Source: an uncultured Gammaproteobacteria bacterium (lineage in GTDB: Bacteria > Patescibacteriota > Patescibacteriia > UBA11705 > JABHMO01). Taken from it: 64,000 nt of DNA. The position numbers and the translations under genes were made by a program. The stretch lies in the NCBI GenBank assembly GCA_964486065.1, contig CAZAKN010000005.1:60-64059 (forward strand). Reading direction: 5' to 3'. Positions 17,897-47,058 of this stretch are shown piece by piece (position 1 is the first letter of the stretch; each line of letters begins with the position of its first letter). The notes beneath the pieces are model-generated. The model was not told the origin of the DNA. It saw nothing but the letters and a program-made list of their open reading frames with translations, and did not search any database.

Positions 17897-18055
17897 ATTT
17901 CAATATATAAAATCACTCGTTTTTCCGAGTGGTTTTTTATTTGTGTTTGACAAAGATTGTCAAAAATTGTAATTGAACAAAGGGGATTGACAAGAGATCG
18001 CGGATGTGTTTAAATAAATTAATCCTTTATTGCTTAACAAAACAAGGAGTGAACC

Positions 18056-18226: not shown

Positions 18227-18278
18227 TTTTGCCACAAACACGGCGTGGATTTTTCCGCATAATCTTTTTGATAAATAC

Positions 18279-18310
18279 TGATTGGACTTTTCCAATCAGT
18301 TTTTTGTTTT
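18279..18310 (+). terminator. Rho-independent terminator (ctgattgga ... tccaatcag + T-run)
   Basis: 9-bp perfect inverted repeat followed by TTTTTTGTTTTT. Confidence 0.6.
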
Positions 18311-18360
18311 TAATAATTGTTTAAATAAGCTATAATTTAATAAAATTAATACTAGATATT

Positions 18361-30992: not shown

Positions 30993-32147
30993 ATGAAAAA
31001 GTTAATGTTATTTATGCTCGCCTTTTGTCTTTTGGCGACACCTTCGGGAATTATGGCGGCGCGTTTCGGTGGAGGCGAACAGTATGCCGTTTCCGGCGGA
31101 GAAGTGATTGAAGATAATGTTTACGCCGCGGGAACAATGGTTAATTTGTCCGGAGAAATAAGACAAGACGCTTTTGTCGCAGGTGCGAATTTAAACATCA
31201 GCGGTGAAGTGGGAGAAGATTTGATAGCAGTCGGCTCAAATTTAAATATTTTGGGAGCGGTTGGAGATGATTTACGAGCGGCGGGAGCCAATGTATTAAT
31301 CAATGGTCAGATCGGCGGTGAAGTTTTAGTGGCCGGAGGGTTGGTGCAATTGACCGCCTCTTCCGAAGTTGAACAAGATGTTCATGTGGCCGGCGGACAA
31401 CTCAGCATTGACGGTTTGATTAAAGGTGATTTGATGGCCGGTGGAGGTATGATTAACTTAAACGGAAAAGTGGAAGGAAATGTCGTGGTTAAAGCCGATG
31501 AAAAAGTGATTATCGGACCGAACGCGGAAATCGGAGGATTATTGGTGTATTCTTCGCCAATGGAAGCGGAAATTGACGAAAATGCCACCATTGTCGGAGA
31601 GATAACTCGCGAAGCTTACAAAAAAGCCAAACATCCATATCAAAAAACCGAAGCATTTAGCGCTTTCGGAGCATTGCTCGGTACTTTGGCAATCGCTAAA
31701 TTATTAGTCTTGCTGGTAAGTGGTTTGATCGCTGTGGCCGTGTTTAAAAAAGCTTCAGCCAATTTATTGCAGAGGACTTACAAAAATTTCGGATGGGATT
31801 TATTAACCGGTTTTGTGGTTTCCATTTTACTTCCTTTAGCCGGATTATTACTCATGTTGACCGTGGTTTTATCTCCGTTTGCTATTGGCGCGGGATTGTT
31901 GTTCGGTTTGTTTTTCTTGATTGCTCATGTTTACGCCGGAATTTTCTTGGGTATTTGGGTGTTTAAATTATTTACCGGCAAAGAACAAAAACTGAATTGG
32001 AAACATGCGCTGGTCGGTATTTTAATCATGGAAATTATTTGTTTCGTGCCTCTTGTGGGATTCTTGGTGAAAACGATTTTGGCCATGGCTTTGTTCGGAT
32101 CAATGTGGTATATGTTTTATAACGGTTTTTTCAAAAAACAAAAATAG
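30993..32147 (+). CDS. Secreted beta-helix-repeat (bactofilin-like / DUF4097-like) protein with C-terminal multi-TM anchor
   Basis: Signal peptide. About 12 tandem degenerate repeats of the form G(E/D)(V/I)..D..(V/A)AG.N(L/V).I.G. C-terminal segment with about four TM helices. Confidence 0.4.
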   Translation: MKKLMLFMLAFCLLATPSGIMAARFGGGEQYAVSGGEVIEDNVYAAGTMVNLSGEIRQDAFVAGANLNISGEVGEDLIAVGSNLNILGAVGDDLRAAGANVLINGQIGGEVLVAGGLVQLTASSEVEQDVHVAGGQLSIDGLIKGDLMAGGGMINLNGKVEGNVVVKADEKVIIGPNAEIGGLLVYSSPMEAEIDENATIVGEITREAYKKAKHPYQKTEAFSAFGALLGTLAIAKLLVLLVSGLIAVAVFKKASANLLQRTYKNFGWDLLTGFVVSILLPLAGLLLMLTVVLSPFAIGAGLLFGLFFLIAHVYAGIFLGIWVFKLFTGKEQKLNWKHALVGILIMEIICFVPLVGFLVKTILAMALFGSMWYMFYNGFFKKQK

Positions 32148-33046: not shown

Positions 33047-33313
33047 ATGCCATTTGAATTTTTAAAAAATCTTTATTTTCATTTTCGCAACACTTTGATT
33101 TGGTTGGCTTTGTATTTTGTTTTACAAGCCGCGATTTGGGGCGGTTTAGCTTGGTTGATTTGGCAATACCCCAGCGCCCTATTTATTTTGGTGGTGGTGT
33201 TTTTAGTTTTATTCGCTTTGGCCAGTTTGTATTTGGGTTTGATTGTTTTGCGTTATGTTTTCAAATTGCGTTCTTTGAAAGCGCATTTGGAAGGTAAAAT
33301 TTCTTGGAAATAA
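33047..33313 (+). CDS. Small membrane protein (two TM), hypothetical
   Basis: 88 aa with two hydrophobic helices. Directly upstream of galU. Confidence 0.3.
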   Translation: MPFEFLKNLYFHFRNTLIWLALYFVLQAAIWGGLAWLIWQYPSALFILVVVFLVLFALASLYLGLIVLRYVFKLRSLKAHLEGKISWK

Positions 33314-34191
33314 ATATGAAGCAAAAAATTAAAAAATTAATAATTCCCGTCGCCGGCTATGGAACCAGATTTTTGCCAGCCACCAAAGCGCAACCCAAGG
33401 AAATGTTGCCCGTGGTGGATAAACCAATCGTGCAATATGTGGTGGAAAATGCGGTATCCGCGGGGATTGAAACCATTATCTTGGTAACGGGGAGCGGTAA
33501 AAGAGCGGTGGAAGATCATTTTGCTTATAATTATGAGCTTCAGAGTTTTTTGAAAAAAGTCGGTAAAGATGAAAAAAGAAAAGAGATCAAAAGAATCGCC
33601 GATCAAGCCAATTTTATTTTTATCCGACAGAAAGGACCATATGGCAACGGTACACCGGTTTTATGCGCCAAGCATTTGATTGGTGATGAGCCTTTTGCCG
33701 TGGCTTGGGGAGATGAATTTTTTTACAGCACCGGCAAGAAAAGTCAGCTGGCTCAATTGATTGATGTTTACGATAAATATCAAGATCCGGTTTTAACCGC
33801 TTACGAAGTGGATAAAAAGGACACGGATAAATATGGAGTGATTGATGGATTACAAATTGAAAACGGAGTTTATCAAGTGAAAAATATCGTGGAAAAACCG
33901 GGGCCGAAAAAAGCGCCGACCAATTTGGCGTCACTTGGTGGATATATTTTAACACCTGATATTTTTGACGAGTTGGAAAACACCAAACTCGGCAAAGGCG
34001 GAGAACTTTGGTTGGTGGACGCTATCTTCAAATTGTTGAAAAAAAGACCGATTTACGCTTGCAAGATCAAGGGAGATTATTATGACACCGGCTCCAAACT
34101 CGGTTACTTGAAAGCCAATGTGGAAATAGCCTTGCGTCGTCCGGATTTAAAAAACGATTTTAAAAAATATTTGAAAAGTTTAAATTTTTAA
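33304..34191 (+). CDS. galU: UTP--glucose-1-phosphate uridylyltransferase
   Basis: IIPVAGYGTRFLPATKAQPKEMLPVVDKPIVQYVVENAVSAGIE nucleotidyltransferase signature with GalU-like collinearity. The likely start is the ATG at 33316. Confidence 0.85.
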   Translation: MEINMKQKIKKLIIPVAGYGTRFLPATKAQPKEMLPVVDKPIVQYVVENAVSAGIETIILVTGSGKRAVEDHFAYNYELQSFLKKVGKDEKRKEIKRIADQANFIFIRQKGPYGNGTPVLCAKHLIGDEPFAVAWGDEFFYSTGKKSQLAQLIDVYDKYQDPVLTAYEVDKKDTDKYGVIDGLQIENGVYQVKNIVEKPGPKKAPTNLASLGGYILTPDIFDELENTKLGKGGELWLVDAIFKLLKKRPIYACKIKGDYYDTGSKLGYLKANVEIALRRPDLKNDFKKYLKSLNF

Positions 34192-34192
34192 T

Positions 34193-35617
34193 ATGTTTAA
34201 AAAAGCCGGAACAATTAAAATATTATTGACTTTGCTTTTGGCTTTTGTTTTTTTAACCGGCGCCAGTTGTACCAAAGGGGGTGATTCTTCCGCTCGTGAT
34301 GCTTATCGTCCCGTGACTATTACCTATTGGCGAGTTTGGGACAATGAAGATGATTTATTGGAATTGATGAATGCTTATCGCGCCTTGCATCCCAATGTTA
34401 GTTTTGAATATCGTAAATTGCGTTATGAAGAATATGAAGATGAGTTACTGAACGCTTTGGCGGAAGATCGCGGTCCGGATATTTTTTCCGTGCATAATAC
34501 TTGGATGGAAAGACATAAAGCAAAAATCCTGCCTATGCCTTCACAGGTTCGCACACCGGTTAAATTTATGTCGGGCACGGTGAAAAAAGAAGAAGTTTAT
34601 GAATTTCGCGCCAGACGCGGTTATTCACCAAGTGAAATGAGAAAAAGTTTTTTGGATGTGGTTTACGATGACGCGGTTATGCCTTACAATTCTGGCACGG
34701 CGGATAAACCGGTTTATCAAGATGTTGTTTGGGGAGTTCCTTTGGCATTGGATAACTTGGTATTATATTACAATCGCGATATTTTAAATACCGCCGGAGT
34801 GATTGAGCCGGCCAAGAACTGGACGGAATTTCAAGAGCATGTAAAAAGAATGACTAGAATTGACGGAAATTCGGGAGATATTTTGGTGGCGGGGGCGGCT
34901 ATCGGAACAGGTGAAAATGTAGCGCGCAGTTTTGACATTCTTTCATTGCTTATGATGCAAAATCAAGCGATCATGATTAATGATAATGATGATGTTGTTT
35001 TCAATCGCATGCCGGGCGCTTTATCCGAGCAATTGGAAGTGCCACCCGGCAGAGGGGCTTTGGAATATTATCTTCAGTTTGCTTCACCGCTCAGCGAGGC
35101 TTACACTTGGAATGAAAATATGCCTGATTCTTTGGAAGCTTTTATGGCCGGACGAGTGGGATATTTTTTCGGGTATGCTTATCACAAGGAATTCATTGAC
35201 GCTCAGGCACCACAACTTGATTATGAAATAGCGCCAATGCCTCAAGTTTCTGCCAATCAAAAAGTTAATTATGCCAATTATTGGCTTGAAACGGTTTCCA
35301 ATAAAACCGAAGTTGTTGATTACGCTTGGGATTTTCTGTTGTTTGCCACTTCGCCGGAAAATATTGAAAAATATTTGGATAAAGTCAAGAAACCCACGGC
35401 TTTGCGTTCTACGGAAATTATCAATAAACAATTGCAAGACCCCGTGTTAACGGTTTTTGCCGATCAATTGTTGACTTCTCGAAGTTGGTATCACGGAGCA
35501 AATTCCGCTGAAGCGGAACAGGCCTTCAATGAAATGATAAAAGTGACTTTGCAAGGAGAGTTAACTCCGGAGAGAGCTATGCTTAACGCTGTGGATAAAA
35601 TTGAAAGTACTAGATAA
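34193..35617 (+). CDS. Extracellular solute-binding lipoprotein (ABC transporter family-1 SBP, probable sugar/oligosaccharide)
   Basis: Lipobox LTGASC. Length and motifs typical of SBP_bac_1. No permease or ATPase partner genes adjacent. Confidence 0.65.
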   Translation: MFKKAGTIKILLTLLLAFVFLTGASCTKGGDSSARDAYRPVTITYWRVWDNEDDLLELMNAYRALHPNVSFEYRKLRYEEYEDELLNALAEDRGPDIFSVHNTWMERHKAKILPMPSQVRTPVKFMSGTVKKEEVYEFRARRGYSPSEMRKSFLDVVYDDAVMPYNSGTADKPVYQDVVWGVPLALDNLVLYYNRDILNTAGVIEPAKNWTEFQEHVKRMTRIDGNSGDILVAGAAIGTGENVARSFDILSLLMMQNQAIMINDNDDVVFNRMPGALSEQLEVPPGRGALEYYLQFASPLSEAYTWNENMPDSLEAFMAGRVGYFFGYAYHKEFIDAQAPQLDYEIAPMPQVSANQKVNYANYWLETVSNKTEVVDYAWDFLLFATSPENIEKYLDKVKKPTALRSTEIINKQLQDPVLTVFADQLLTSRSWYHGANSAEAEQAFNEMIKVTLQGELTPERAMLNAVDKIESTR

Positions 35618-36035
35618 TATGTTTAAAAAGTTTTTAATAATTATCTTGATTTGCAGTTGGTTATTGCCTTTCGGCGCAATGGCAAAAGAAACATCGGGCA
35701 ATAATTGTCAATTTGCCAATGATTGGAGCTTGTTGCCCGTAAAGTGCACGCAATCAACTTACAGTGAGGCGATAGAATGCGGTTTGGAGGAATTGCAATG
35801 CACTTTGATTCGTTTTGCCACCATAATTTTACGCTTGGCCGGGTCAGCCGCGCTCTTAATGTTTGTTATCGGAGGAATAATGTATATTCTTTCCGGCGGG
35901 GATCAGGGAAAAGTCCAGAAAGCTACCGGTTTTTTGAAATACGCGACCATAGGTTTGGCCATGATATTATTATCAGGCTTTTTTATCAGAGTTCTTTTGG
36001 AAGTTTTAACCAATAAAGGAGTATCATATAATTAA
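35601..36035 (+). CDS. VirB2/TrbC-like (T4SS-pilin-like) small secreted two-TM protein, paralog 1
   Basis: Signal peptide, Cys-containing ectodomain, then a TM1-GG..(K/Q)..A-TM2 core (AALLMFVIGGIMYILSGGDQGKVQKATGFLKYATIGLAMILLS). Confidence 0.5.
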   Translation: MKVLDNMFKKFLIIILICSWLLPFGAMAKETSGNNCQFANDWSLLPVKCTQSTYSEAIECGLEELQCTLIRFATIILRLAGSAALLMFVIGGIMYILSGGDQGKVQKATGFLKYATIGLAMILLSGFFIRVLLEVLTNKGVSYN

Positions 36036-36036
36036 T

Positions 36037-36471
36037 ATGAAATATAAGATTCTTTGTTGTGTAGTAATATTATTAAGTGTTTTTTTCTTGAGCTTGGATT
36101 TTTCTTTTGCTAAAGATTCGGCGGAAGCTAAAGATTCGGCGGAAGCTAAAGCGATTAAAGAAATTAGTAACTTGCAAAGAGATCTTGGTTTGACACTTGG
36201 CCATAATACCAATATTACCATAGGCAATTTTATCAAAGCTTTTTGGGGAATATTGGGATCAATTTCTTTGGCTGTTTTTTTGTATGGTGGTATAATGTGG
36301 ATGATCTCAGAAGGGGATGATACCAAAATAACCAAAGCCAAAAAGACCATGATTTGGGCGGCTTTGGGCTTGTTGGTTATGTTTACTTCTTATGTGATCA
36401 TTGAATTTTTAATAGATACATTGGGGAAACAGGATATTGGTTTTCACTATATTTCCAAATATATTATTTAA
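36037..36471 (+). CDS. VirB2/TrbC-like pilin-like protein, paralog 2 (contains AKDSAE tandem repeat)
   Basis: Core LAVFLYGGIMWMISEGDDTKITKAKKTMIWAALGLLVMF. An 18-bp tandem duplication gctaaagattcggcggaa x2 encodes AKDSAEAKDSAE. Confidence 0.5.
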   Translation: MKYKILCCVVILLSVFFLSLDFSFAKDSAEAKDSAEAKAIKEISNLQRDLGLTLGHNTNITIGNFIKAFWGILGSISLAVFLYGGIMWMISEGDDTKITKAKKTMIWAALGLLVMFTSYVIIEFLIDTLGKQDIGFHYISKYII

Positions 36472-36501
36472 TATTTAATTTAATAATTAATCATTAAAGC
36501 C

Positions 36502-36888
36502 ATGATTAACATTACAAAAGTAAAAGTGGTGGCCAAAGTCGCTTTTATGGTTTTTCTGCTTTTCGCGGTAGCTATGCCGGCCTTTGCTCAATTAGATTTG
36601 GGATTGGGAGAAGTAGGAGAAGCTACGGAGCTTGGAGATACGGATATTCGTACAACAGTGGGATCCATTATCAATGCTGCTTTGGGCTTCTTGGGCGTTG
36701 TCGCGGTGGTCATTGTTTTGATCGGTGGGTTTAAGTATATGATTGCCGGTGGCAGTGAAGACAAAGTGGCTGAAGCGAAAAAATGGATTATTTCCGGAAT
36801 TATCGGTTTGGCCATTATCTTGAGCGCTTATGCGATCACTACATTTGTAGTTGGCGAGTTGATTTCAGCAACTACGGGAGTAGAATAA
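36502..36888 (+). CDS. VirB2/TrbC-like pilin-like protein, paralog 3
   Basis: Core VVIVLIGGFKYMIAGGSEDKVAEAKKWIISGIIGLAIILSAYAITTFV. Confidence 0.5.
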   Translation: MINITKVKVVAKVAFMVFLLFAVAMPAFAQLDLGLGEVGEATELGDTDIRTTVGSIINAALGFLGVVAVVIVLIGGFKYMIAGGSEDKVAEAKKWIISGIIGLAIILSAYAITTFVVGELISATTGVE

Positions 36889-36900
36889 TCTTCTTAAATA

Positions 36901-36925
36901 AGGGAGGGCTTCGGCCCTCCCGGAG
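36901..36925. terminator. GC-rich hairpin (gggagggc ttcg gccctccc) inside the pilin-like array; possible terminator or processing site
   Basis: 8-bp perfect GC stem with tetraloop. The downstream U-tract is weak. Confidence 0.35.
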
Positions 36926-36965
36926 CTCCTATTTCATTCAGCCATTAGATAATTAGTTTAGTTAT

Positions 36966-37427
36966 TTGATGATTGTTATGAAAAAGAAACTATCTTTATT
37001 GAGTTTTTGCATACTTGTTTTCTTAATGATGGTTTTTGGTTCCATGCCCGCAATGGCGGACAATTATTTGCAACAGGGTTTGGATTATACGGCGAAGCAG
37101 GCGACTTTGATGGATGATTCAGTGGAGGCAGGAGGGGGAAAACAGATTAGTGAAAGAATCGGTTATTGGTTGGGAAGAGTTATGTCTTTTATTGGTATTT
37201 TGTTTTTGGTTTTAATTTTATATGGCGGACTTATGTGGCTAATCAGTCGTGGCGATAAAACTAAAATAGCCAATGCTAAAAGCATTATAATTGATGCCAC
37301 GATCGGTCTTTTGATCACCATGTCCGCTTATGCTATTGTTAACGGTTTATTTGATGTTTTTAAAAATAATAATTTAGGTGAAACTGTTGGAAAAGCAAAT
37401 GTGGAAAATAATAAGAAAATGGTATGA
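36966..37427 (+). CDS. VirB2/TrbC-like pilin-like protein, paralog 4
   Basis: Core LVLILYGGLMWLISRGDKTKIANAKSIIIDATIGLLITMSAYAIV. Confidence 0.5.
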   Translation: MMIVMKKKLSLLSFCILVFLMMVFGSMPAMADNYLQQGLDYTAKQATLMDDSVEAGGGKQISERIGYWLGRVMSFIGILFLVLILYGGLMWLISRGDKTKIANAKSIIIDATIGLLITMSAYAIVNGLFDVFKNNNLGETVGKANVENNKKMV

Positions 37428-37840
37428 AAAAAGTAAAAAAAATTTATCAAATATCATTATTGGCAATATTTTTATTTTCATTTCTTTTGCCTTTGCAAAG
37501 TGTAATGGCTCAGGGAGATAGCGCACAGGAAATGGCTGACCAGGGATTGCAAGTATCTGCCGGCAAAGCCGGATTGACCGCAGCGCCGGTGGAACAAATA
37601 GTGGGAAATATTATTGGTTATATGTTAAGTTTTATAGGCTTGGTTTTGCTTGTAATGATTGTTTACGGTGGTATTTTGTGGTTGACGGCCGGCGGCAAAT
37701 CTGACCAATTGGAAAAAGCCAAATCGGTTTTGGCTAATGCGGTTATCGGTTTGGCTATAGTTTTGTTGGCCTATAGTTTTACTTTCTATGTTACTTCTCG
37801 TTTTACCGCAGCCACTCAAACTACAGAACAAACTCCTTAA
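37424..37840 (+). CDS. VirB2/TrbC-like pilin-like protein, paralog 5
   Basis: Core MIVYGGILWLTAGGKSDQLEKAKSVLANAVIGLAIVLLAYSF. Its start overlaps the previous stop (ATGA). Confidence 0.5.
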   Translation: MKKVKKIYQISLLAIFLFSFLLPLQSVMAQGDSAQEMADQGLQVSAGKAGLTAAPVEQIVGNIIGYMLSFIGLVLLVMIVYGGILWLTAGGKSDQLEKAKSVLANAVIGLAIVLLAYSFTFYVTSRFTAATQTTEQTP

Positions 37841-37848
37841 TTATACCT

Positions 37849-38259
37849 ATGAAATATTTAATTAATTCAAAAGTAAAAAGTTTTACAGTTATTATTGCGA
37901 TTTTTTGTATTTTACTATTAGGTTTTGGATCTGTTGTATCAGCGCAAGATCCGCAAAGTAAACTGCAAGGAGCGTATAAAGCATCATTTGGTCAAGAATT
38001 GAATGATCCGGAAAACCTTTTCACTCAGCAAGTCGGTGGTATTATTAGGATTATTTTAGCTACAGTGGGTACGGTGTTTGTGGTTGTTTTAGTTTACGCG
38101 GGATATTTGTGGTTAACGGCCGGTGGTAATGATACGCAACTGGCCAAGGCGAAAAGTTTAATGATCAATGGAGTCATTGGTTTGGCCATAACTTTGGCCG
38201 CGTATTTGATTTCCGATTATGTCTTTATTCGTTTGGTGGCGTCCACGGTCGGAGGATAA
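37849..38259 (+). CDS. VirB2/TrbC-like pilin-like protein, paralog 6
   Basis: Core VLVYAGYLWLTAGGNDTQLAKAKSLMINGVIGLAITLAAYLISDYV. Confidence 0.5.
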   Translation: MKYLINSKVKSFTVIIAIFCILLLGFGSVVSAQDPQSKLQGAYKASFGQELNDPENLFTQQVGGIIRIILATVGTVFVVVLVYAGYLWLTAGGNDTQLAKAKSLMINGVIGLAITLAAYLISDYVFIRLVASTVGG

Positions 38260-38261
38260 AT

Positions 38262-38711
38262 ATGAAAATGAAAAAAATAATATTTATTTTAATTATTATC
38301 ATGTTGGTCGTGCCGTTTTTTTCACAAGCGGCGGGAACTTTTGATCCGAAAGGAGATTTAGCGCAAGCTGAAAAGGGACTTTATCAAGGCGCTCAGCCCA
38401 CTTCTTTACCGGTATATATCGGGATGATTATCAGATATGTTTTGGGGACTGTGGGAGTTGTTTTAACCGTAATTATCGTTTATGCAGGATTTTTATGGCT
38501 GACGGCCGGTGGTAATTCAGACCAAGTCGGAAAAGCTAAAAAATTATTAATTAACGGTTTTGTCGGGTTATTGATTACTTTGGGGGCGAATTCAATAGCA
38601 CATTTTGTTATTGACAGATTAACTGATAATTCGCAACCAAATGAATGGGTGGAAATAGGTGAACAACCATATAAACCTTTAAGCGAACAAGTAAGAGACG
38701 GAGATTTATGA
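38262..38711 (+). CDS. VirB2/TrbC-like pilin-like protein, paralog 7
   Basis: Core IIVYAGFLWLTAGGNSDQVGKAKKLLINGFVGLLITLGANSIAHFV. Confidence 0.5.
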   Translation: MKMKKIIFILIIIMLVVPFFSQAAGTFDPKGDLAQAEKGLYQGAQPTSLPVYIGMIIRYVLGTVGVVLTVIIVYAGFLWLTAGGNSDQVGKAKKLLINGFVGLLITLGANSIAHFVIDRLTDNSQPNEWVEIGEQPYKPLSEQVRDGDL

Positions 38712-39115
38712 AAAAGATATTATTAATTTTTTTAATTGTCAGCATATTGTTTTCATTAAAAATTGTCCCTGCGGAGGCTAAGAGTGGGCAAGACTTTGTT
38801 AATGATTTACGACAGGGTTCGGAAAATGTGGGTGCCAAGGGGTTCGGAGAAACCGGTGGAAGTAGCCAGTTGACATATAGAATCGGTACTTGGATTCAAA
38901 TAGTCTTGGGTACTTTGGGTATAATTGTGGTGGTAATTATCCTTTACGCCGGCTTTTTATGGATGACCGCCGGAGGCAATACCGATCAAGTCGGGAAAGC
39001 TAAAAGCTTATTGATCAACGGAGCAATAGGATTGCTTATAGCCATTAGTGCGTATGCCATAACGGATTTTGTTCTGGATAGGTTTGTGGAAGACGCTCAA
39101 GTTCAAGAGCGTTGA
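38708..39115 (+). CDS. VirB2/TrbC-like pilin-like protein, paralog 8
   Basis: Core IILYAGFLWMTAGGNTDQVGKAKSLLINGAIGLLIAISAYAITDFV. Confidence 0.5.
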   Translation: MKKILLIFLIVSILFSLKIVPAEAKSGQDFVNDLRQGSENVGAKGFGETGGSSQLTYRIGTWIQIVLGTLGIIVVVIILYAGFLWMTAGGNTDQVGKAKSLLINGAIGLLIAISAYAITDFVLDRFVEDAQVQER

Positions 39116-39164
39116 TTGAAATATTAAATATTTGCTATAATATTTTTAATAATAATTAAAAAGA

Positions 39165-39566
39165 TTGCGTTTTATGAAAAATATTTTTATTGTTTTGGCC
39201 ATGCTGTTCTTGGTTTTGTTCAGCGCCAACGCGGTTTTCGCTATCAGCGATGATGTCGCCAGGGAAATAAGAGGAGGAGCCGATACTATCGGTAATGTGG
39301 GATTTGGAGAGTCAAGTGGTGAAGGAGAATTATTGTCAAACAGAATCGGCGGAATAATTAAAGCGGCTTTGGGCTTGGTGGGTGTTATCGTAGTGGTGAT
39401 AATTGTTTACGCCGGCTTTTTATGGATGACCGCCGGAGGCAATACCGATCAAGTTGGGAAAGCCAAAAGCTGGTTGATTAACGGTGTTATCGGTTTGGTT
39501 TTGGTTTTAAGCGCTTACGCTATCACGGATTTTGTTATCAGCAGATTGATTGAAGCATCCGCATAA
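39165..39566 (+). CDS. VirB2/TrbC-like pilin-like protein, paralog 9
   Basis: Core IIVYAGFLWMTAGGNTDQVGKAKSWLINGVIGLVLVLSAYAITDFV. Shares a 48-nt identical DNA stretch with paralog 8. Confidence 0.5.
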   Translation: MRFMKNIFIVLAMLFLVLFSANAVFAISDDVAREIRGGADTIGNVGFGESSGEGELLSNRIGGIIKAALGLVGVIVVVIIVYAGFLWMTAGGNTDQVGKAKSWLINGVIGLVLVLSAYAITDFVISRLIEASA

Positions 39567-39620: not shown

Positions 39621-39645
39621 TACACGAGAGGCGCGAGCTTCTCGA

Positions 39646-42141: not shown

Positions 42142-43710
42142 ATGAAAAAAATTTTTTTAGCAATATTGATTATCTTGTTTGCCATGCCTTTTGTGTCGGT
42201 TTACGCTCAAGAAGTTCGGCAAGAAAGCCAAGAACAAGTCGTGGAAATAAAAGCGGAAGCGGGTAGCGATAAAAATGTTATTGTAAACAGGCAAGTTTCT
42301 TTCAGTTCAATAGGTTCGGTGGTGCAAGGAGAAGTTGGCGAAATTAAATATGTTTGGAACTTGGGTGATGGAACCGTATTACAGGGAGAAGAAATAGTTC
42401 ATACATATTCCCAGGCCGGAGTATACAGAGTTAAACTGATAATTTCCGGGAAACATGAAGAAAACGAATTAGTATCAGAGGATGAAATTATAGTTAATGT
42501 GGACAAAGATATTTTGGTCTTGATTACTGATCAAAGCGTGGATGATAAACAACTGTCTTTGATCCAAAACTTGGCTTCTTCGCAAGGAATTTTATTAGTA
42601 AAAATTCAAGAAACGGAAAATCAAATTGATTATGTTGCGGAAAAAGAATTGGCGCAAAAAATCATTAAAAATAAAGATGAAATTTTACAAGCCGGAGGAG
42701 TGGTAATCTGGACTTCCGGAAACATGGGCGTAAATTCTTTTCTGGAAGCCGGACAAGTTTTATCGGCGGAAGATAACGGGACCAAACTAAGTGATTTTGG
42801 TTTTCAAAATAAGCATATTGTTGTAATAACCGAACAAAACTTTACCGCGGCCGCCAAATTGTCTCAAAATTTATATAATATTTTGGAACCGCAATTTATC
42901 GTTTTAACTCATGAAGATGCCAAAGACGAAGTTTTTTTAAGTTCAAATATAAACGATTTATTAACCAAATTACAAAACAGTGAAACGGATTATAAATTGG
43001 TCGGTTTGCATACCAAAAGAGAATTGAGCGAAAAAGGGTATTGGAATTTTTTGTCGCGTATTGTCAGTTACATGGTTGACAGAGGAGTGCCTTTAAACAC
43101 CATATATTTGATTTTGGTTTTACCGGTAATTGCTACGATTTTAGCTTTTACGCGTCAAGTTATAGGGATCAAAGCTTTGGGTATTTATGCGCCTTCAATC
43201 GTGGCGGTTTCATTTTTGTCCACGGGTTTGGAATATGGTTTGTTGATTTTTTTGATAACTTTATTGGTGGGAACATTAACTAGAATTTTTGCTCGTAAAG
43301 TCAGGCTTTCATATTTACCTCGCATGGCCAATGTGCTTATCTTGGTGAGTTTCGCGGTTTTATTCATGTTTTGGGTTGGAGCTTATTTGGGCAAAAGTTC
43401 CATGATCAGTATTTCCGTTTTTCCGATTTTGATAATGGTTTTATTGACCGAGAAATTCATTAACGCTCAGATTGAACGAGGTAGTAAGGCAGCGGTTGTA
43501 TTGGTTTTGGAAACTTTGATGTTATCCATGGCTTGTTATTTTTTGGCCAATTGGCAAACTTTGCGAATTTTTGTATTGGCATATCCCGAGCTGGTTCTTT
43601 TGACCATAATAATTAATATCTTAATCGGTAAATGGAAAGGTTTGCGACTTTTGGAATATTACCGATTTAGAAAAGTAATAAAAAATGTTGAGTTACTTGA
43701 GAAAAAGTAA
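42142..43710 (+). CDS. Secreted PKD-domain protein with C-terminal polytopic (about 7 TM) membrane region (7TM_transglut-like partner of RimK-like ligases)
   Basis: Signal peptide. PKD-like segment KYVWNLGDGTVLQGEEIVHTYSQAGVYRVKLII. The C-terminal 220 aa has six or seven TM helices (AFTRQVIGIKALGIYAPSIVAVSFL...). Confidence 0.45.
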   Translation: MKKIFLAILIILFAMPFVSVYAQEVRQESQEQVVEIKAEAGSDKNVIVNRQVSFSSIGSVVQGEVGEIKYVWNLGDGTVLQGEEIVHTYSQAGVYRVKLIISGKHEENELVSEDEIIVNVDKDILVLITDQSVDDKQLSLIQNLASSQGILLVKIQETENQIDYVAEKELAQKIIKNKDEILQAGGVVIWTSGNMGVNSFLEAGQVLSAEDNGTKLSDFGFQNKHIVVITEQNFTAAAKLSQNLYNILEPQFIVLTHEDAKDEVFLSSNINDLLTKLQNSETDYKLVGLHTKRELSEKGYWNFLSRIVSYMVDRGVPLNTIYLILVLPVIATILAFTRQVIGIKALGIYAPSIVAVSFLSTGLEYGLLIFLITLLVGTLTRIFARKVRLSYLPRMANVLILVSFAVLFMFWVGAYLGKSSMISISVFPILIMVLLTEKFINAQIERGSKAAVVLVLETLMLSMACYFLANWQTLRIFVLAYPELVLLTIIINILIGKWKGLRLLEYYRFRKVIKNVELLEKK

Positions 43711-45085
43711 AAAGGTTTTGGGCATGAATGCCCGTAATTTGTCTTTCATTCGGCCGAGCAACTCAAAAAAAGCGGTTCGTTTGGTTGATGATAAATTGCG
43801 CAGTAAAGAAGTTTTGAGAAAAAACGGATTACCGACTGTTGAACTTTTGGGCGTGGTCAGGAACCGCAAAGAATTTTACAAATTCCCTTGGCATAAATTG
43901 GAAAACAGTTTTGTTCTAAAGCCCAATCGTGGTTTGGGTGGTGGCGGAATCTTGGTTACTTACGGACGCAAGAAAAACGGTCGTTGGGTTTTGCCGAATA
44001 ATAAAGAAGCGGAATTGAAAGATGTTATTTTACGCGTATCCAATATTTTGGACGGAGATTTTTCTAAAACCAATATTCCGGACAGTGCTTTTTTTGAAGA
44101 AAGATTAAAAATTCATCCGGCTTTTAAATTATATTGTTATAAAGGCGTGCCGGATATTCGGGTGATTGTTTACAATAAAGTCCCGATTATGGCTATGCTC
44201 AGATTGCCAACCAAAAATTCTGATGGAAGAGCCAATTTGCATAAAGGAGGTATTGGTGTGGGTATTGATATTGAATCAGGCATTACTACGCATGCCATAC
44301 AATATGATAGAGAAATTGAATATTTACCTGAAATGAAGTTGCCCTTGCGTGGTTTGCAAATCCCGGAGTGGAATAATATTTTGGAATTGGCGGTTAAGTC
44401 CGTTGATGCTTGCGGTTTGAATTACGCAGGTGTTGATTTGGCCGTGGACAAAAAAAAAGGCCCGGTTATCATGGAATTGAACGCTCATCCCGGTTTGTCC
44501 ATTCAGATCGCCAACATGGCGCCACTTAAAGATCGTTTAAAACGCGTAAAAGGATTAAAAATTCGCACCGCGCAAAAAGGTATCAGTGTGGCCAAGGAAT
44601 TGTTTGGTGGAGATCTGGCTCAAGAAGTTAAAGAATTGACCGGCAAAAAAATAATCGGCATTATTCATCAAATCGGGGTGAAGAAAAAAAGTGAAAAAAA
44701 ATTTACTACCGTTGAAGCAAAAGTGGATACCGGAGCGGGGATTACCGCAATTGATGAAGAATTGGCCAGACAATTGGGATTCGCGGAGGCCATTGAATAT
44801 TATCATTCTTTTAATATAAAGAGAGTGCTTACAAAAGAAGAAGTGGACGAGCTAAGTGAAAAACAGGTTTGGAAAGAAATAGTAAAACATAAAGACATTG
44901 TGGAAGTCGTGAAAATATTCAGCAGTCATGGTATTTCTTATCGCATTGAAGTCCCATTGGTCATTAAATTGGCGGGACATGAAATACATTGTCATGCATC
45001 TGTTATTGAAAGAGAAAATTTGAAATACCCGGTGATTTTGGGAAGAAGAGATTTGAATAAATTTTTAATAGATCCCGGTAAATAA
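43685..45085 (+). CDS. RimK-like ATP-grasp amidoligase (alpha-L-glutamate-ligase-related) fused to C-terminal retropepsin-like Zn_protease/DUF785 domain
   Basis: N-terminal LGMNARNLSFIRPSN motif and ATP-grasp core (NYAGVDLAVDKKKGPVIMELNAHPGLS). C-terminal segment FTTVEAKVDTGAGITAIDEELARQLGF ... YPVILGRRDLNKFLIDP is retropepsin-like. The probable start is the ATG at 43724. Confidence 0.6.
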   Translation: MLSYLRKSKKVLGMNARNLSFIRPSNSKKAVRLVDDKLRSKEVLRKNGLPTVELLGVVRNRKEFYKFPWHKLENSFVLKPNRGLGGGGILVTYGRKKNGRWVLPNNKEAELKDVILRVSNILDGDFSKTNIPDSAFFEERLKIHPAFKLYCYKGVPDIRVIVYNKVPIMAMLRLPTKNSDGRANLHKGGIGVGIDIESGITTHAIQYDREIEYLPEMKLPLRGLQIPEWNNILELAVKSVDACGLNYAGVDLAVDKKKGPVIMELNAHPGLSIQIANMAPLKDRLKRVKGLKIRTAQKGISVAKELFGGDLAQEVKELTGKKIIGIIHQIGVKKKSEKKFTTVEAKVDTGAGITAIDEELARQLGFAEAIEYYHSFNIKRVLTKEEVDELSEKQVWKEIVKHKDIVEVVKIFSSHGISYRIEVPLVIKLAGHEIHCHASVIERENLKYPVILGRRDLNKFLIDPGK

Positions 45086-45117
45086 TCAGTGGAAATAATC
45101 ATTAATTCAATATTATT

Positions 45118-46125
45118 ATGTTAAAACCGGAACAATTTAATTATTTCAGTACATATTTGCTGGGAGCTGAAGCTGAGAGCCGAGGAATTAAAGTTACCAA
45201 AATTTTTACCAAAGGAGGATTGGCAAAACACAGTCATTTGGTTTTAACTTATAAAAAACATGAAGAGGTTATAATCGGACAAAGAACTCGTCAAACCGAT
45301 TGCATCGGATATTGGATTTCAAAAAATAAACAAGTCGCCAAATATTTCTTTTCCAGAGCCGGTTTGCAAGTTGCTAAAGGTGGAATTTATGACGCCAATG
45401 ACATGGATGAAATAACCAAACAAGCCAAAAGGATCAAATATCCCGTGGTATTGAAGCCGGTGGCGGGGATACAAGGAACGAAAGTTTTTTTGGGAGTTGA
45501 TTCGGATAAAAAATTGAAAAAAATAATTAAAGAAAATTTTAAAGGAAAGGTTCTTTTGGAAAAAGAATATTTTGGTAAAGAGTATAGGCTTTTGGCAATT
45601 CGCGATAAGTTTTTAGCGGCCATTTATCGTGTACCTGCCAATGTTCAAGGTGACGGAATTCACGGTATAAAAGATTTGATTGAATTGAAAAATAAAGATC
45701 CGAGGCGAGGTTCCGGACATAAGAAGAGCTTGGTCAAGATTAAAATTGACGGAATTGTCAAAGATTATTTAAAAAAACAAGGAAAAAAATTATCTTCCGT
45801 ACCCAACAAAGATGAAATTGTTTATCTTCGTCCCAATTCCAATATTTCCACGGGAGGAGATAGTATTGATGTAACGGACTTGGTTAATCCAGAGGTGAAG
45901 AAGTTGGCTGTTAAAGTTATTAAGTCCATTCCGGGCTTGGCTTATGGTGGGATTGATTATTTGACCAAAGATATTACCGCTAAGCCGACTACCCGCAATT
46001 ATATTGTTATAGAAGTCAATGATTCCCCCATGATTTCCATGCATCATTTCCCGTATCAGGGTAAAGAAAGAAATGTGGCGGCGTCGATAATTGATCAAAT
46101 TTTTCCGGAAACCAAAAATAAGTAA
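45118..46125 (+). CDS. Cyanophycin-synthetase-N-domain-like ATP-grasp ligase (no Mur-ligase domain), paralog A
   Basis: YPVVLKPVAGIQGTKVFLGV; ANVQGDGIHGIKDLIELKNKDPRRGSGHKKSLVKI; NISTGGDSIDVTDLVNPE; VIEVNDSPMISMHHFPYQGKERNVAASIIDQIF. These are collinear with the CphA ATP-grasp B/C subdomains. Confidence 0.6.
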   Translation: MLKPEQFNYFSTYLLGAEAESRGIKVTKIFTKGGLAKHSHLVLTYKKHEEVIIGQRTRQTDCIGYWISKNKQVAKYFFSRAGLQVAKGGIYDANDMDEITKQAKRIKYPVVLKPVAGIQGTKVFLGVDSDKKLKKIIKENFKGKVLLEKEYFGKEYRLLAIRDKFLAAIYRVPANVQGDGIHGIKDLIELKNKDPRRGSGHKKSLVKIKIDGIVKDYLKKQGKKLSSVPNKDEIVYLRPNSNISTGGDSIDVTDLVNPEVKKLAVKVIKSIPGLAYGGIDYLTKDITAKPTTRNYIVIEVNDSPMISMHHFPYQGKERNVAASIIDQIFPETKNK

Positions 46126-46128
46126 AAT

Positions 46129-47058
46129 ATGAAAAATGAATTTAATGATTTTTTATGTGAATATGCCGAGAAAAAAGGCATTATTTGTGAAAAAGTGGAT
46201 AAAGGCGCTGAATTTGTTTTATTAAAAAAAGGTGGAAAGAAAAAATTGATTTATGGAGGAGTGGTGACGGATCAATCCGCGGCGACGGGATATGTTTTGT
46301 CTAAAAACAAGTTTTTTACACATGAATATTTAAAAAAGAACAAATATCCGGTTTTACCGAAGATTAGAACCAACAAATATTCCGAAGCTGAAAAATTTTT
46401 AAATAAACATAAAGTTGTTGTTGTTAAACCTCCTTTTTTGAAACAAGGCAAAGGAATATCAGTTAATTTGAAAACCAAAAAAGATTTGCGTCAAGCTTGG
46501 AATTTAGCTCGTAAATACGCCGGCAATATTATTGTTGAAAAATTTTTCGCGGGAGAAGATTTAAGGGTTTTAGTGATTGATTATAAACATGTTTTCGCCG
46601 TAAAAAGATATCCGGCTTATGTGATGGGTGATGGGAAAAGTAATATTAAAAAATTGATTGAAATAAAAAATAGAAAAGGCTATCCTGGTAAAAGATTTAA
46701 AAAAATCATGATAGATAATGCTTTGCGAATGTTTTTAAAACAATCAAAACTGACTTTGCAAAATGTGCCTGCGGAAGGCGAAAAAGTGGTAGTGAGAGGA
46801 ACCGCAAATGTGCATACAGGTGGAGAAACGGAAGGTTTTACCGATAGTTTAAGTTCAGATATAAAAAAACAAGCCATTGCTTTAGCCAAAGAATTAAGAT
46901 TACCCGTTGTCGGAGTTGATTACCTGGTCTCGCCAAATCAGAAAACCAAGTATATAATTGAATTAAACGCTGATCCCGGTTTTAAATTGCATCATTTCCC
47001 TATTTTGGGAAAACCGGAAGATCCAACTGAAAAATTTTTACAAATGATATTTAAATAA
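46129..47058 (+). CDS. Cyanophycin-synthetase-N-domain-like ATP-grasp ligase, paralog B
   Basis: YVMGDGKSNIKKLIEIKNRKGYPGK ... VHTGGETEGFTDSLSSD ... IIELNADPGFKLHHFPILGKPEDPTEKFLQMIF. Same architecture as 45118-46125. Confidence 0.55.
   Translation: MKNEFNDFLCEYAEKKGIICEKVDKGAEFVLLKKGGKKKLIYGGVVTDQSAATGYVLSKNKFFTHEYLKKNKYPVLPKIRTNKYSEAEKFLNKHKVVVVKPPFLKQGKGISVNLKTKKDLRQAWNLARKYAGNIIVEKFFAGEDLRVLVIDYKHVFAVKRYPAYVMGDGKSNIKKLIEIKNRKGYPGKRFKKIMIDNALRMFLKQSKLTLQNVPAEGEKVVVRGTANVHTGGETEGFTDSLSSDIKKQAIALAKELRLPVVGVDYLVSPNQKTKYIIELNADPGFKLHHFPILGKPEDPTEKFLQMIFK

What the first reader, a model, noticed from the sequence alone, without database searches (positions are those of the whole stretch)
35601..39566. 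Tandem array of nine diversified VirB2/TrbC-like (T4SS-pilin-like) paralogs
Nine consecutive same-strand genes of 128-153 aa. Each has a signal peptide, a variable 40-60-aa ectodomain and a conserved two-helix hydrophobic core with the pattern (I/V)G.II...LG.VG....V(I/V)..YAG(F)LW(L/M)TAGG..D....AK.L(L)INGVIGL.I.LSAYAI.DFV. A glycine-rich TM1, a short charged turn and TM2 is the architecture of conjugative pilins (VirB2/TrbC) and of the Pfam T4SS_pilin family that is expanded in CPR genomes. These are not type IV pilins: there is no FTLIE-type N-terminus. No VirB4, VirB6 or VirD4 ATPase or channel genes lie within the window. The N-terminal ectodomains and C-terminal tails are highly divergent between paralogs; the first paralog is Cys-rich. 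This suggests a diversifying surface-exposed family, for example host or episymbiont contact, or phage receptor variation. Several adjacent genes overlap (37424/36966, 38708/38262). A GC hairpin at 36901-36925 splits the array into at least two units.
Basis: partly seen in the sequence, partly recalled or inferred. Interest (0 to 1): 0.7.

Follow-up and report, generated by a model that had tools for sequence, protein, structure and literature searches.

The report
Tandem VirB2-like pilin genes, Patescibacteria
Nine neighbouring genes in an ultra-small (Patescibacteria) bacterium encode small secreted membrane proteins of the conjugative-pilin family; such arrays are already described in this group, so the finding is correct but ordinary, apart from some conserved features of the operon that have not been reported.

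Summary
Nine same-strand genes at 35619-39566 each encode a signal peptide, a short acidic N-segment, a Gly-rich TM helix, a basic loop, a second TM helix and a short tail. All nine hit Pfam T4SS_pilin (PF18895), eight above the curated cut-off. TrbC/VirB2 (PF04956) hits stay just below threshold. The window is a chromosomal stretch from a Falkowbacteria-like Patescibacterium (GTDB class ABY1) and includes dnaA/dnaN; it holds no VirB4, VirB6 or VirD4. Tandem arrays of 2-11 divergent VirB2-like pilins in Patescibacteria are published (PMC12102498, PMC10633639), so this is a new member of a known kind. Comparison with 80 related loci adds three things. (1) The array has a conserved order: W1- and W2-type genes, one strongly conserved W3-type gene, then a variable W4-W9 block. 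(2) A stable hairpin follows the W3-type gene in 68% of arrays, against 9% of other junctions. (3) The unit GalU, sugar-type SBP lipoprotein and array persists while both outer flanks change. Two strains at 99.5% identity show no hypervariability. Best reading: subunits of a heteropolymeric T4SS-type surface filament, assembled by machinery encoded elsewhere. Filament formation is inferred, not shown.

The parts
33304..34191 (+). GalU-like nucleotidyl transferase gene (UTP-glucose-1-phosphate uridylyltransferase type); first gene of the conserved GalU-SBP-array unit
   Evidence: Pfam NTP_transferase, E 5.9e-28. It directly precedes the SBP gene in 32 of the 44 related loci where the upstream neighbour is visible.
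34193..35617 (+). Orphan sugar-type solute-binding lipoprotein gene, immediately upstream of the array
   Evidence: Pfam SBP_bac_1 and SBP_bac_8. The best PDB relatives are sugar ABC SBPs, 4qrz at E 2.7e-11. A lipobox Cys occurs in 42 of 49 orthologues. It lies directly upstream of the array in 38 of 60 loci with enough upstream DNA, with a stop-to-start distance of -17 to +11 nt in 21 of those 38. No permease gene was found in the window.
35619..36035 (+). W1: pilin-like paralog with a Cys-rich N-segment (ATG start; the TTG at 35601 is the mechanical ORF start)
   Evidence: PF18895, 35.1 bits. Orthologues occupy the first array position in 9 genomes, with two conserved Cys and a KAT loop motif.
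36037..36471 (+). W2: pilin-like paralog; its N-segment contains a KDSAEA x2 repeat
   Evidence: PF18895, 35.6 bits. W2-type genes (1-3 copies, often with 200-770-aa ectodomains) precede the W3-type gene in most relatives. They share the MxWAAxGL motif.
36502..36888 (+). W3: the shortest and best-conserved paralog; candidate major or core subunit
   Evidence: It has the best PF18895 score (47.7 bits) and the best TrbC score (27.6 against 27.9). One W3-type gene at 45-66% identity is found in nearly all related arrays, with large score margins. Its N-segment is also conserved across 40 orthologues. It is identical between the two strains.
36902..36921 (+). G+C-rich hairpin (8-bp stem, UUCG loop) in the 77-nt spacer after W3; candidate intra-operon attenuator or mRNA stabiliser
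   Evidence: A hairpin of -12 kcal/mol or stronger follows the last W3-type gene in 42 of 62 arrays, against 30 of 329 other junctions (Mann-Whitney p 4.5e-14; p 3e-9 when only gaps of at least 40 nt are compared). The hairpin sequences differ between genomes.
36969..37427 (+). W4: divergent pilin-like paralog with a 24-aa C-tail
   Evidence: PF18895, 26.3 bits, 0.3 below the cut-off. Hit by the family HMM.
37424..37840 (+). W5: pilin-like paralog; overlaps W4 by 4 nt
   Evidence: PF18895, 34.8 bits. Overlap shown.
37849..38259 (+). W6: pilin-like paralog
   Evidence: PF18895, 45.3 bits. The exact protein occurs on 4 metagenome contigs.
38262..38711 (+). W7: pilin-like paralog with a 32-aa acidic C-tail
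   Evidence: PF18895, 28.0 bits. Tail described.
38708..39115 (+). W8: pilin-like paralog; overlaps W7 by 4 nt
   Evidence: PF18895, 33.3 bits. Its core is 76% identical to W9, the most recent duplication in the array.
39174..39566 (+). W9: last pilin-like paralog (ATG start)
   Evidence: PF18895, 44.9 bits. The AlphaFold2 model has a helical hairpin at residues 54-86 and 91-129 with pLDDT 93-97.
39625..39644 (+). Terminator-like hairpin between the end of the array and the convergent phosphoglucose-isomerase gene
   Evidence: CGAGAGGCGCGAGCTTCTCG followed by ATTATTT. This is a consensus match only.

Best explanation
The region is a chromosomal operon of a Falkowbacteria-like Patescibacterium (GTDB class ABY1). 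It encodes nine prepilins of the T4SS_pilin (VirB2/TrbC-like) family.

Proposed steps for each product:
- It is exported by Sec and cut after an AxA-type site. This is inferred from sequence.
- It sits in the membrane as a two-helix hairpin, with the acidic N-segment and the C-tail outside and the basic GGxxDQVxKAK loop inside. This is inferred from charge distribution and the predicted structure.
- Subunits are then extracted and polymerised into a T4SS-type surface filament or membrane-proximal conduit by a VirB4/TrsD-type machine encoded elsewhere in the genome. This step is inferred by homology and from published data on relatives; it is not shown.

The array is not nine equivalent variants. 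W1 and W2 are conserved accessory types. W3 is the conserved core or major subunit. The hairpin after W3 probably lowers read-through or stabilises the proximal transcript, so the distal block W4-W9 is made in smaller amounts. That block turns over by gene birth and death and supplies alternative outward-facing N- and C-terminal peptides, plausibly for contact with different host cells.

The upstream sugar-type SBP lipoprotein gene and the GalU-like gene travel with the array and are probably co-transcribed. Their role is unknown; possibilities include glycan recognition at the contact site and pilin glycosylation.
For: Family:
- PF18895 hits all nine proteins, eight above the cut-off.
- There are sub-threshold hits to TrbC and to the Mycoplasma ICE pilin-like family NF045849.
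- hhalign against six genuine MPF_T VirB2/TrbC proteins gives 66% probability, E 5.5e-5, over TM1-loop-TM2.
- Homologues are named 'pilin' or 'VirB2 component' by NCBI and JGI.

Architecture:
- Each protein has three hydrophobic segments.
- N-segments carry net charge -1 to -5 and loops 0 to +3.
- AlphaFold2 predicts a helical hairpin with pLDDT 93-97.

Operon:
- Intergenic gaps are -4 to 77 nt.
- Hairpins lie at 36902-36921 and 39625-39644.

Comparative evidence:
- Arrays of 5-11 genes are the norm in 80 relatives.
- The order is conserved as W1/W2, then W3, then a variable block.
- Subtype-specific motifs are conserved.
- The hairpin after W3 is conserved.
- The GalU-SBP-array unit is kept while the outer flanks change.

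Machinery elsewhere:
- VirB4 is present in 2,417 of 3,035 Patescibacteria assemblies (PMC12102498).
- It is present in 17 of 18 ABY1 genomes on the sampled page of Table S1, including all 7 Falkowbacteria.
- In Falkowbacteria GCA_000992375.1 the VirB2 genes are numbers 589-591 and 595, while VirB4 is gene 789.

Function in the phylum: the pilin series of S. epibionticum is essential for epibiotic growth (PMC10633639).
Against: - No T4SS ATPase or channel gene lies in the 64-kb window.
- None lies within 10 kb of the array in any of the 80 relatives.
- The genome beyond the 64.7-kb contig could not be reached, so a partner machine is assumed.
- No pilus has been seen for any Patescibacteria T4SS_pilin protein in the papers read.
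- The TrbC cut-off is not reached.
- The fold is a generic helical hairpin that matches thousands of unrelated chains, so structure gives no independent support.
- Relatives carry the same module fused to 500-3,200 aa of Ig-like domains or concatenated 2-17 times in one polypeptide. Both are easier to picture as membrane-anchored or membrane-embedded assemblies than as a classical thin pilus.
- The weak T-tract after the W3 hairpin leaves its role as a terminator uncertain.
Confidence: 0.6

Rival explanations
1. The two-helix module is a membrane anchor or membrane-embedded oligomer, not a filament subunit. In this reading the nine proteins stay in the cytoplasmic membrane. They display short peptides on the cell surface, or bundle into a ring or channel, without needing a T4SS. 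In relatives the same module displays large adhesin domains.
For: - There is no T4SS gene near the array in the window or in the 80 relatives.
- In the same genomes the module is fused N-terminally to 500-3,200 aa of Big_5, TIG and Big_7 domains, or C-terminally to 230-700-aa ectodomains.
- Single polypeptides exist with one signal peptide and 2-17 hairpin modules, for example P0129 with six.
- The fold is generic.
Against: - Sequence homology to VirB2/TrbC is detectable.
- In other Patescibacteria classes the pilin genes sit next to virB4 in 1,135 of 1,948 assemblies, and they are essential together with the T4SS in S. epibionticum.
- In VirB2-type pili both termini face outward (general knowledge of F- and T-pilus structures). 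Terminal fusions and head-to-tail concatenation are therefore geometrically compatible with a filament.
Confidence: 0.2
2. The array works with the upstream SBP lipoprotein, and perhaps GalU, as a sugar-related module. The pilin-like hairpins would be the membrane partner or conduit for a sugar-binding lipoprotein, serving uptake or sensing of host-derived glycans. Alternatively they are substrates of UDP-glucose-dependent glycosylation.
For: - The GalU-SBP-array unit is conserved in about 40 loci while both outer flanks differ.
- The SBP stop and the first pilin start are within -17 to +11 nt in 21 of 38 loci.
- The SBP is a conserved lipoprotein of the sugar-binding type.
- No ABC permease is found in the window.
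- The T4SS of Saccharibacteria has been proposed as a possible import route (PMC11665869).
Against: - This rests on linkage alone.
- GalU and the downstream PGI are housekeeping sugar enzymes, so part of the linkage may be inherited synteny.
- No precedent was found in the searched literature.
- Two-TM hairpins bear no resemblance to ABC, TRAP or TTT permeases.
- About 20% of arrays in the clade lack the SBP neighbour.
Confidence: 0.1
3. The array is an actively diversifying antigenic- or receptor-variation system. Paralogs would be exchanged or selected rapidly to evade phage or to switch hosts.
For: - N-segments and tails are essentially unalignable, at about 19% identity, while cores average 41%.
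- The distal block W4-W9 has ambiguous orthology and a variable copy number between genomes.
- W8 and W9 cores are 76% identical, which suggests a recent duplication.
- Tandem virB2 paralogs in Bartonella and Anaplasma have been interpreted this way (PMC12102498).
Against: - Two strains at 99.5% identity differ at only 8 positions across the 3.9-kb array. W3, W6, W7 and W8 are identical, and the density is lower than in the flanks.
- The Logan SRR7048224 contig (L002) is 100% identical to the window over the 11.1 kb it covers.
- W1, W2 and W3 are conserved across phylum-level lineages, including their N-segments.
- No recombination repeats or invertible elements were looked for or seen.
Confidence: 0.1

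Closest known systems
VirB2-like pilin arrays of Patescibacteria (Quinonero-Coronel et al. 2025, PMC12102498; S. epibionticum ML1 pilin series, Wang et al. 2023, PMC10633639; 'Sec-secreted array' of TM7x)
   Same: - The Pfam family is the same (PF18895, with PF04956).
- The genes are in tandem on one strand.
- Nine genes falls within the published range of 2-11.
- Within-array identity is low: the paper reports mean 25% and maximum 54%, and here identity to W9 is 20-54%.
- The host is a Patescibacterium and the locus is chromosomal.
- The array is fairly close to dnaA, about 19 kb away.
   Different: - The array here is not in a T4SS cluster. In S. epibionticum the pilin genes lie inside the cluster.
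- In this ABY1 clade the array travels with a GalU-like gene and an SBP lipoprotein gene. It also has a fixed internal order and a hairpin after the W3-type gene.
- None of these features is mentioned in the papers read: 'solute-binding' gives 0 hits in PMC12102498.
Classical conjugative pilins VirB2 (A. tumefaciens Ti plasmid) and TrbC (IncP), Pfam PF04956
   Same: - Both have a signal peptide, a short N-segment and two hydrophobic helices joined by a short basic loop.
- The size is similar.
- There is weak but detectable sequence similarity: TrbC HMM E 3.4e-6 for W3, and hhalign 66% probability.
   Different: - The scores fall below the PF04956 gathering score.
- The loop is about 7 residues longer.
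- There are no adjacent virB1, virB3 or virB4 genes, whereas all six reference VirB2 genes sit between virB1 and virB3.
- The host is a monoderm-type organism.
- There are nine paralogs instead of one.
- No tblastn match was found in 72,556 plasmids.
Tandem virB2 paralogs of Bartonella and Anaplasma phagocytophilum T4SS loci (as cited in PMC12102498)
   Same: Both have several divergent VirB2 copies in tandem, with variation concentrated in the exposed parts.
   Different: Those are diderm pathogens of animals and their copies lie inside virB operons. Here there is no sign of strain-level variation, and three of the subtypes are anciently conserved.
Mbov_0395 family pilin-like conjugal transfer protein of Mycoplasma ICEs (NCBIfam NF045849)
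   Same: It is a small two-helix protein of a wall-less or monoderm lineage linked to a T4SS-type transfer system. Eight of the nine paralogs give hits, with E down to 2.6e-9.
   Different: All scores (up to 36.6 bits) are below the 40-bit cut-off. That family occurs as a single gene in a mobile element, not as a chromosomal array.

Membership tests
Pfam PF18895 T4SS_pilin | Whole-protein HMM score at or above the gathering score of 26.6 bits | tested here: met
   Scores are 35.1, 35.6, 47.7, 26.3, 34.8, 45.3, 28.0, 33.3 and 44.9 bits. Eight of nine pass. W4 misses by 0.3 bit but is hit by a family HMM built from its neighbours.
Pfam PF18895 T4SS_pilin | Signal peptide followed by two hydrophobic helices separated by a short polar loop | tested here: met
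   Hydropathy peaks and AxA-like sites are present in all nine. AlphaFold2 predicts helices at 54-86 and 91-129 with pLDDT 93-97. No dedicated signal-peptide or TM predictor was available.
Pfam PF04956 TrbC/VirB2 | Whole-protein HMM score at or above the gathering score of 27.9 bits | tested here: not met
   The best score is 27.6 bits (W3, E 3.4e-6). W9 scores 23.3, W5 20.3, W7 15.0 and W8 13.3, and there is no hit for W1, W2, W4 or W6. Several close homologues carry a precomputed PF04956 hit.
Pfam PF04956 TrbC/VirB2 | Profile-level homology to genuine VirB2/TrbC of conjugative MPF_T plasmids | tested here: inconclusive
   hhalign of the 87-sequence family alignment against 6 annotated VirB2/TrbC proteins gives 66% probability, E 5.5e-5, over 58 columns spanning TM1-loop-TM2.
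T4SS pilin in the functional sense (VirB2-type pilus subunit) | Encoded with, or in the same genome as, VirB4 and channel components | not testable with these tools
   None is present in the window or within 10 kb in the 80 relatives. Only a 64.7-kb contig of this organism is reachable. Published tables show VirB4 in 17 of 18 sampled ABY1 genomes, and about 200 genes from the pilin array in one Falkowbacteria genome.
T4SS pilin in the functional sense (VirB2-type pilus subunit) | Polymerises into an extracellular filament (pilin-phospholipid helical polymer) | not testable with these tools
Patescibacteria VirB2-like pilin array (as defined in PMC12102498) | Two or more genes hitting PF18895, PF04956 or T4SS pilin profiles, in tandem or separated by one non-pilin gene, in a Patescibacteria genome | tested here: met
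   Nine adjacent hits. The nearest named relatives are Candidatus Falkowbacteria, Magasanikbacteria and Uhrbacteria, which the paper's Table S1 assigns to GTDB class ABY1.
Patescibacteria VirB2-like pilin array (as defined in PMC12102498) | High divergence among members of one array (published mean 25%, maximum 54% identity) | tested here: met
   Identity to W9 is 54, 47, 42, 38, 43, 25, 27 and 20%. Identity to W1 is 18-22%.
Type IV pilins (T4P, class III signal peptide) | N-terminal G/FTLIE-type prepilin peptidase and N-methylation motif (Pfam PF07963) | tested here: not met
   No PF07963 hit at E up to 1 in any of the nine. The N-termini are Sec-type. Genuine N_methyl proteins do occur upstream of the unit in about 13 related loci, but not in the window.
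NCBIfam NF045849 Mbov_0395 pilin-like conjugal transfer protein | Score at or above the 40-bit cut-off | tested here: not met
   The best score is 36.6 bits (W3). Eight of nine give sub-threshold hits.

The most novel reading that the evidence does not exclude
In ABY1-class Patescibacteria the pilin array is not an accessory of the T4SS. It is instead the core of a separate, conserved operon made of a GalU-like enzyme, a sugar-binding lipoprotein and a pilin array. This operon would build a heteropolymeric surface filament or membrane conduit from W1/W2 accessory subunits, the W3 major subunit and exchangeable W4-W9 subunits. Stoichiometry would be set by the hairpin after W3. The structure would work with the tethered sugar-binding protein to recognise or take up host-derived glycans, independently of VirB4.
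Probability: 0.1. Interest if true: 0.75.

Novelty: new member of a known kind. Interest (0 to 1): 0.3.

Why it matters
Patescibacteria make up a large share of uncultured bacterial diversity, and how they attach to and feed on host cells is an open question. The only genetic study so far found the T4SS and its pilin series essential for epibiotic growth, with function unknown (PMC10633639, PMC11665869).

This locus adds nothing to the basic fact that such arrays exist. The comparative features seen here do turn 'many divergent pilins' into testable hypotheses:
- a fixed order of three ancient subtypes plus a variable block;
- a conserved hairpin after the best-conserved gene;
- tight coupling to a sugar-binding lipoprotein and GalU;
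- the same module fused to giant Ig-domain proteins elsewhere in the same genomes.

The hypotheses concern which protein is the major subunit, what sets subunit stoichiometry, and whether glycans are involved.

Tried and rejected
- **Profile search of PDB sequences.** It gave only spurious repeats from designed 'Pizza' proteins.
- **tblastn of W3 against 72,556 plasmids.** No match, so the family could not be tied to a conjugative plasmid context this way.
- **Reaching the rest of the genome.**
  - Exact-protein look-ups found only short Logan contigs and one 104-kb ENA contig covering window positions 1-51186.
  - The window itself is a 64,710-bp NCBI contig with no accession shown.
  - VirB4 presence in this organism therefore stays untested.
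- **Motif scan for VirB4-like ATPases.** I scanned all ORFs of at least 450 aa in the 80 loci and the window for a Walker A plus hhhhDE[A/C/F/G/S][W/H/Q/Y/F]. None was found.
- **Other recurrent neighbours.** Pfam scans identified them as housekeeping genes, including PNPase, S15, HisRS, LepB, YqeY, an NYN-domain protein and MGDG synthase, or as type-IV-pilin-like genes. None is a T4SS part.
- **dN/dS among paralogs.** Not computed. At 20-76% core and about 19% N-segment amino-acid identity, synonymous sites are expected to be saturated. I used a strain comparison instead, but it has only 8 differences in the array.
- **Promoter scan.** 32 sites were found against 25.5 expected, which is not above background, so no promoter is claimed.
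- **Considered and rejected.**
  - Type IV pilins: no N-methyl motif.
  - Chance ORFs: HMM hits and recurrence in four assemblies rule this out.
  - Holin or phage origin: the flanks are housekeeping genes on a chromosome that carries dnaA and dnaN.

Full report
**Observation**

The nine ORFs exist as described. They lie on the + strand between 35601 and 39566. Spacers are -4 to 77 nt, and two pairs overlap by ATGA. Gene calls on identical metagenome contigs place the starts of genes 1, 4 and 9 at ATG codons 35619, 36969 and 39174.

Every product has the same layout:
- a K/R-rich N-terminus, a hydrophobic stretch and an AxA-like site;
- an N-segment of 22-40 residues;
- two further hydrophobic segments joined by a conserved GGxxDQVxKAK-type loop;
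- a tail of 8-32 residues.

The N-segments carry net charge -1 to -5 and the loops 0 to +3. That fits an N-out, loop-in, C-out topology. An AlphaFold2 model of the last paralog, built on 87 sequences, gives a helical hairpin (residues 54-86 and 91-129) at pLDDT 93-97.

Core identity among paralogs averages 41%, with W8/W9 at 76%. N-segments are at noise level, about 19%.

**Family**

- All nine hit Pfam PF18895 T4SS_pilin, eight above the gathering score and one 0.3 bit below.
- Five give sub-threshold hits to TrbC/VirB2, the best being 27.6 against 27.9.
- Eight give sub-threshold hits to the Mycoplasma ICE pilin-like family NF045849.
- A profile-profile comparison with six annotated VirB2/TrbC proteins, fetched from conjugative MPF_T plasmids, gives 66% probability and E 5.5e-5 over TM1-loop-TM2.
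- No type-IV-pilin motif is present.
- Fold searches cannot discriminate a helical hairpin, and PDB sequence searches give only spurious hits.
- The family is very large: 83,320 cluster representatives at E of 1e-3 or better among 1.84 billion.

**Context**

The window is chromosomal and belongs to a Patescibacterium.
- dnaA (16087-17463, -) and dnaN (14688-15815, -) are present.
- Four DnaA-box-like sites cluster at 15875-16072.
- The GC skew changes sign near 16-18 kb.
- The array therefore lies about 19 kb from the probable origin, on the leading strand.

The flanks are housekeeping genes. A GalU-like gene and a sugar-type SBP gene lie upstream. A convergent PGI gene, then YebC, RuvC, ATP-grasp genes, PBP1 and SMC lie downstream.

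No VirB4, VirB6 or VirD4 family appears in any scanned ORF. The unscanned ORFs are too short to encode one. The nearest named relatives are Candidatus Falkowbacteria at about 55% identity, then Magasanikbacteria and Uhrbacteria. Table S1 of PMC12102498 assigns these to GTDB class ABY1.

The identical array occurs in ENA ERZ1757541 and in three Logan assemblies.

**What is already known**

- PMC12102498 reports 441 arrays of 2-11 VirB2-like pilin genes in 383 Patescibacteria assemblies. Mean identity is 25% and the maximum 54%. The same two Pfam models were used.
- PMC10633639 shows that the pilin series of S. epibionticum is essential and sits inside its T4SS cluster.
- A 2025 review calls this the one known case of VirB2-type pilins in a monoderm T4SS.
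- VirB4 is present in 2,417 of 3,035 assemblies.
- On the page of Table S1 that I read, 17 of 18 ABY1 genomes and all 7 Falkowbacteria have VirB4.
- In Falkowbacteria GCA_000992375.1 the VirB2 genes are numbers 589-591 and 595, flagged 'not near VirB4', and VirB4 is gene 789.

An array away from virB4 is therefore normal for this class. The kind of feature is known, and the window holds a further example of it.

**What the comparison with 80 related loci adds**

*Array size.* Arrays are the rule. The largest array per locus, counting only arrays not cut by a contig end, has a mode of 6 and a range of 1-11. Nine genes is unremarkable.

*Internal order.* BLAST of every array member against the nine window paralogs shows a fixed order:
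- a W1-type gene, in some genomes;
- one to three W2-type genes, often with ectodomains of 200-770 aa;
- one W3-type gene at 45-66% identity, with large score margins;
- a block of genes that match W4, W5, W7, W8 or W9 almost equally well.

Alignments confirm subtype-specific conserved motifs. These are two Cys and a KAT loop in W1, MxWAAxGL in W2, and a conserved N-segment as well as core in 40 W3 orthologues. The paralogs are therefore old and specialised at the proximal end, and turn over at the distal end.

A hairpin of -12 kcal/mol or stronger follows the last W3-type gene in 42 of 62 arrays, against 30 of 329 other junctions (p 4.5e-14). When only spacers of at least 40 nt are compared, p is 3e-9. 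The hairpin sequences are unrelated between genomes.

By analogy with other pilus operons, this suggests W3 is the abundant subunit and the distal genes are expressed at a lower level. In those operons a stem-loop follows the major-subunit gene; this is my own knowledge and was not tested here.

*Linked genes.*
- The SBP gene lies directly upstream of the array in 38 of 60 loci with enough upstream DNA. Most exceptions are a different locus type.
- The GalU-like gene precedes the SBP gene in 32 of the 44 loci where the neighbour is visible.
- Both outer flanks vary between genomes.
- The SBP is of the sugar-binding type and is a lipoprotein in 42 of 49 orthologues.
- I found no mention of this link in the papers searched.

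*Variation between strains.* Two strains at 99.5% identity differ at 8 positions across the 3.9-kb array, a lower density than in the flanks. W3, W6, W7 and W8 are identical. This argues against ongoing hypervariation, although the counts are small.

**Mechanism**

*Shown here:*
- family membership;
- tandem operon-like layout;
- predicted hairpin fold;
- conserved order;
- conserved hairpin after W3;
- conserved neighbours.

*Inferred:*
- Sec export and signal-peptide cleavage;
- the membrane topology;
- assembly by a VirB4-type machine encoded elsewhere;
- outward-facing N- and C-termini, by analogy with F- and T-pilus structures (general knowledge);
- W3 as the major subunit;
- the distal block as exchangeable surface variants.

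*Main doubt.* It is not established that a filament forms at all. Relatives carry the same module fused to 500-3,200 aa of Ig-like domains, in a second locus following LepB, HisRS and YqeY. The wider family includes polypeptides with 2-17 concatenated modules. Both facts are compatible with a filament whose termini face outward. They fit equally well with a membrane-anchored display or a membrane-embedded oligomer.

**Verdict**

The feature is a further example of a published kind. Its interest lies only in the conserved operon anatomy described above.

Noticed in passing
window 33304-35617, and L006-L085 (for example L066 5912-7330, L040 5881-7323): The GalU-like gene, the sugar-type SBP lipoprotein gene and the pilin array form a unit kept in about 40 related loci while both outer flanks change. 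The SBP stop and the first pilin start often overlap or abut. This link is not mentioned in the Patescibacteria T4SS paper.
   Followed up: partly
L014 7535-16726; L044 9959-19362; L049 2627-14345; L050 2665-11488; L052 7523-16609; L075 7598-19894: A second locus type occurs in the same genomes, following LepB, HisRS and YqeY. It holds one or two genes in which an N-terminal signal peptide and pilin hairpin module are followed by 500-3,200 aa of Big_5, TIG and Big_7 Ig-like domains. These look like adhesins anchored by, or built onto, a pilin module.
   Followed up: partly
P0129 (552 aa), P0135 (1775 aa, 17 modules), P0128 (820 aa, 8 modules): The wider family contains single polypeptides with one signal peptide and 2-17 concatenated two-helix pilin modules. 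P0129 has six modules and no internal signal peptides.
   Followed up: partly
L018, L021, L026, L029, L036, L040, L041, L065, L069, L074, L079, L083 (for example L040 803-4757): In about 13 Magasanikbacteria-like loci, three type-IV-pilin-like genes lie directly upstream of the GalU-SBP-array unit. They are N_methyl plus CarboxypepD_reg (600 aa), N_methyl (205 aa) and PilX_N (458 aa). The two kinds of pilin genes are therefore neighbours there. This is not the case in the window.
   Followed up: no
window 14688-18360: The probable replication origin lies here. dnaA and dnaN are on the - strand. Four DnaA-box-like sites (8 of 9 matches) cluster at 15875-16072 in their spacer, with two more at 17532 and 17584. 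The GC skew changes sign here.
   Followed up: partly
L001 (ERZ1757541 contig_8233) compared with the window: 35636, and the GalU and dnaA genes: The ENA assembly has single-base indels that split GalU (120 + 171 aa) and DnaA (269 + 162 aa) and remove the start of W1. The Logan SRR7048224 contigs match the window exactly: 100% identity over the 11.1 kb of the array region, and an intact identical DnaA. These look like assembly errors rather than pseudogenes.
   Followed up: partly
record titles of L007, L010, L011, L016, L018, L019 and many others: Many MAGs carrying these Patescibacteria-type loci are titled 'uncultured Gammaproteobacteria bacterium' (TPA_asm binchicken or SRP co-assemblies). 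A few are titled Vicinamibacterales, Acutalibacteraceae or Udaeobacter. These are probably placeholder or wrong taxonomic labels.
   Followed up: no
window 30993-32147: A 384-aa protein has a signal peptide, a Gly-rich repetitive (beta-helix-like) N-terminal half and four C-terminal TM segments, with a weak DUF8173 hit. It lies 3.4 kb upstream of the array. Homologues recur in only a few related loci (cluster c54).
   Followed up: no
window 165-3593: A 1,142-aa secreted protein carries Laminin_G_3 and Toxin_R_bind_N lectin-like domains and a C-terminal peptidoglycan-binding domain. It is a candidate host-contact protein at the start of the window.
   Followed up: no
window 42142-47058: This is a cluster of a PKD + 7TM_transglut membrane protein with three ATP-grasp genes (ATPgrasp_ST and RimK-like, one with a Zn_protease-like C-terminus). 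It lies downstream of RuvC and is conserved in several relatives (clusters c23, c24, c26).
   Followed up: no
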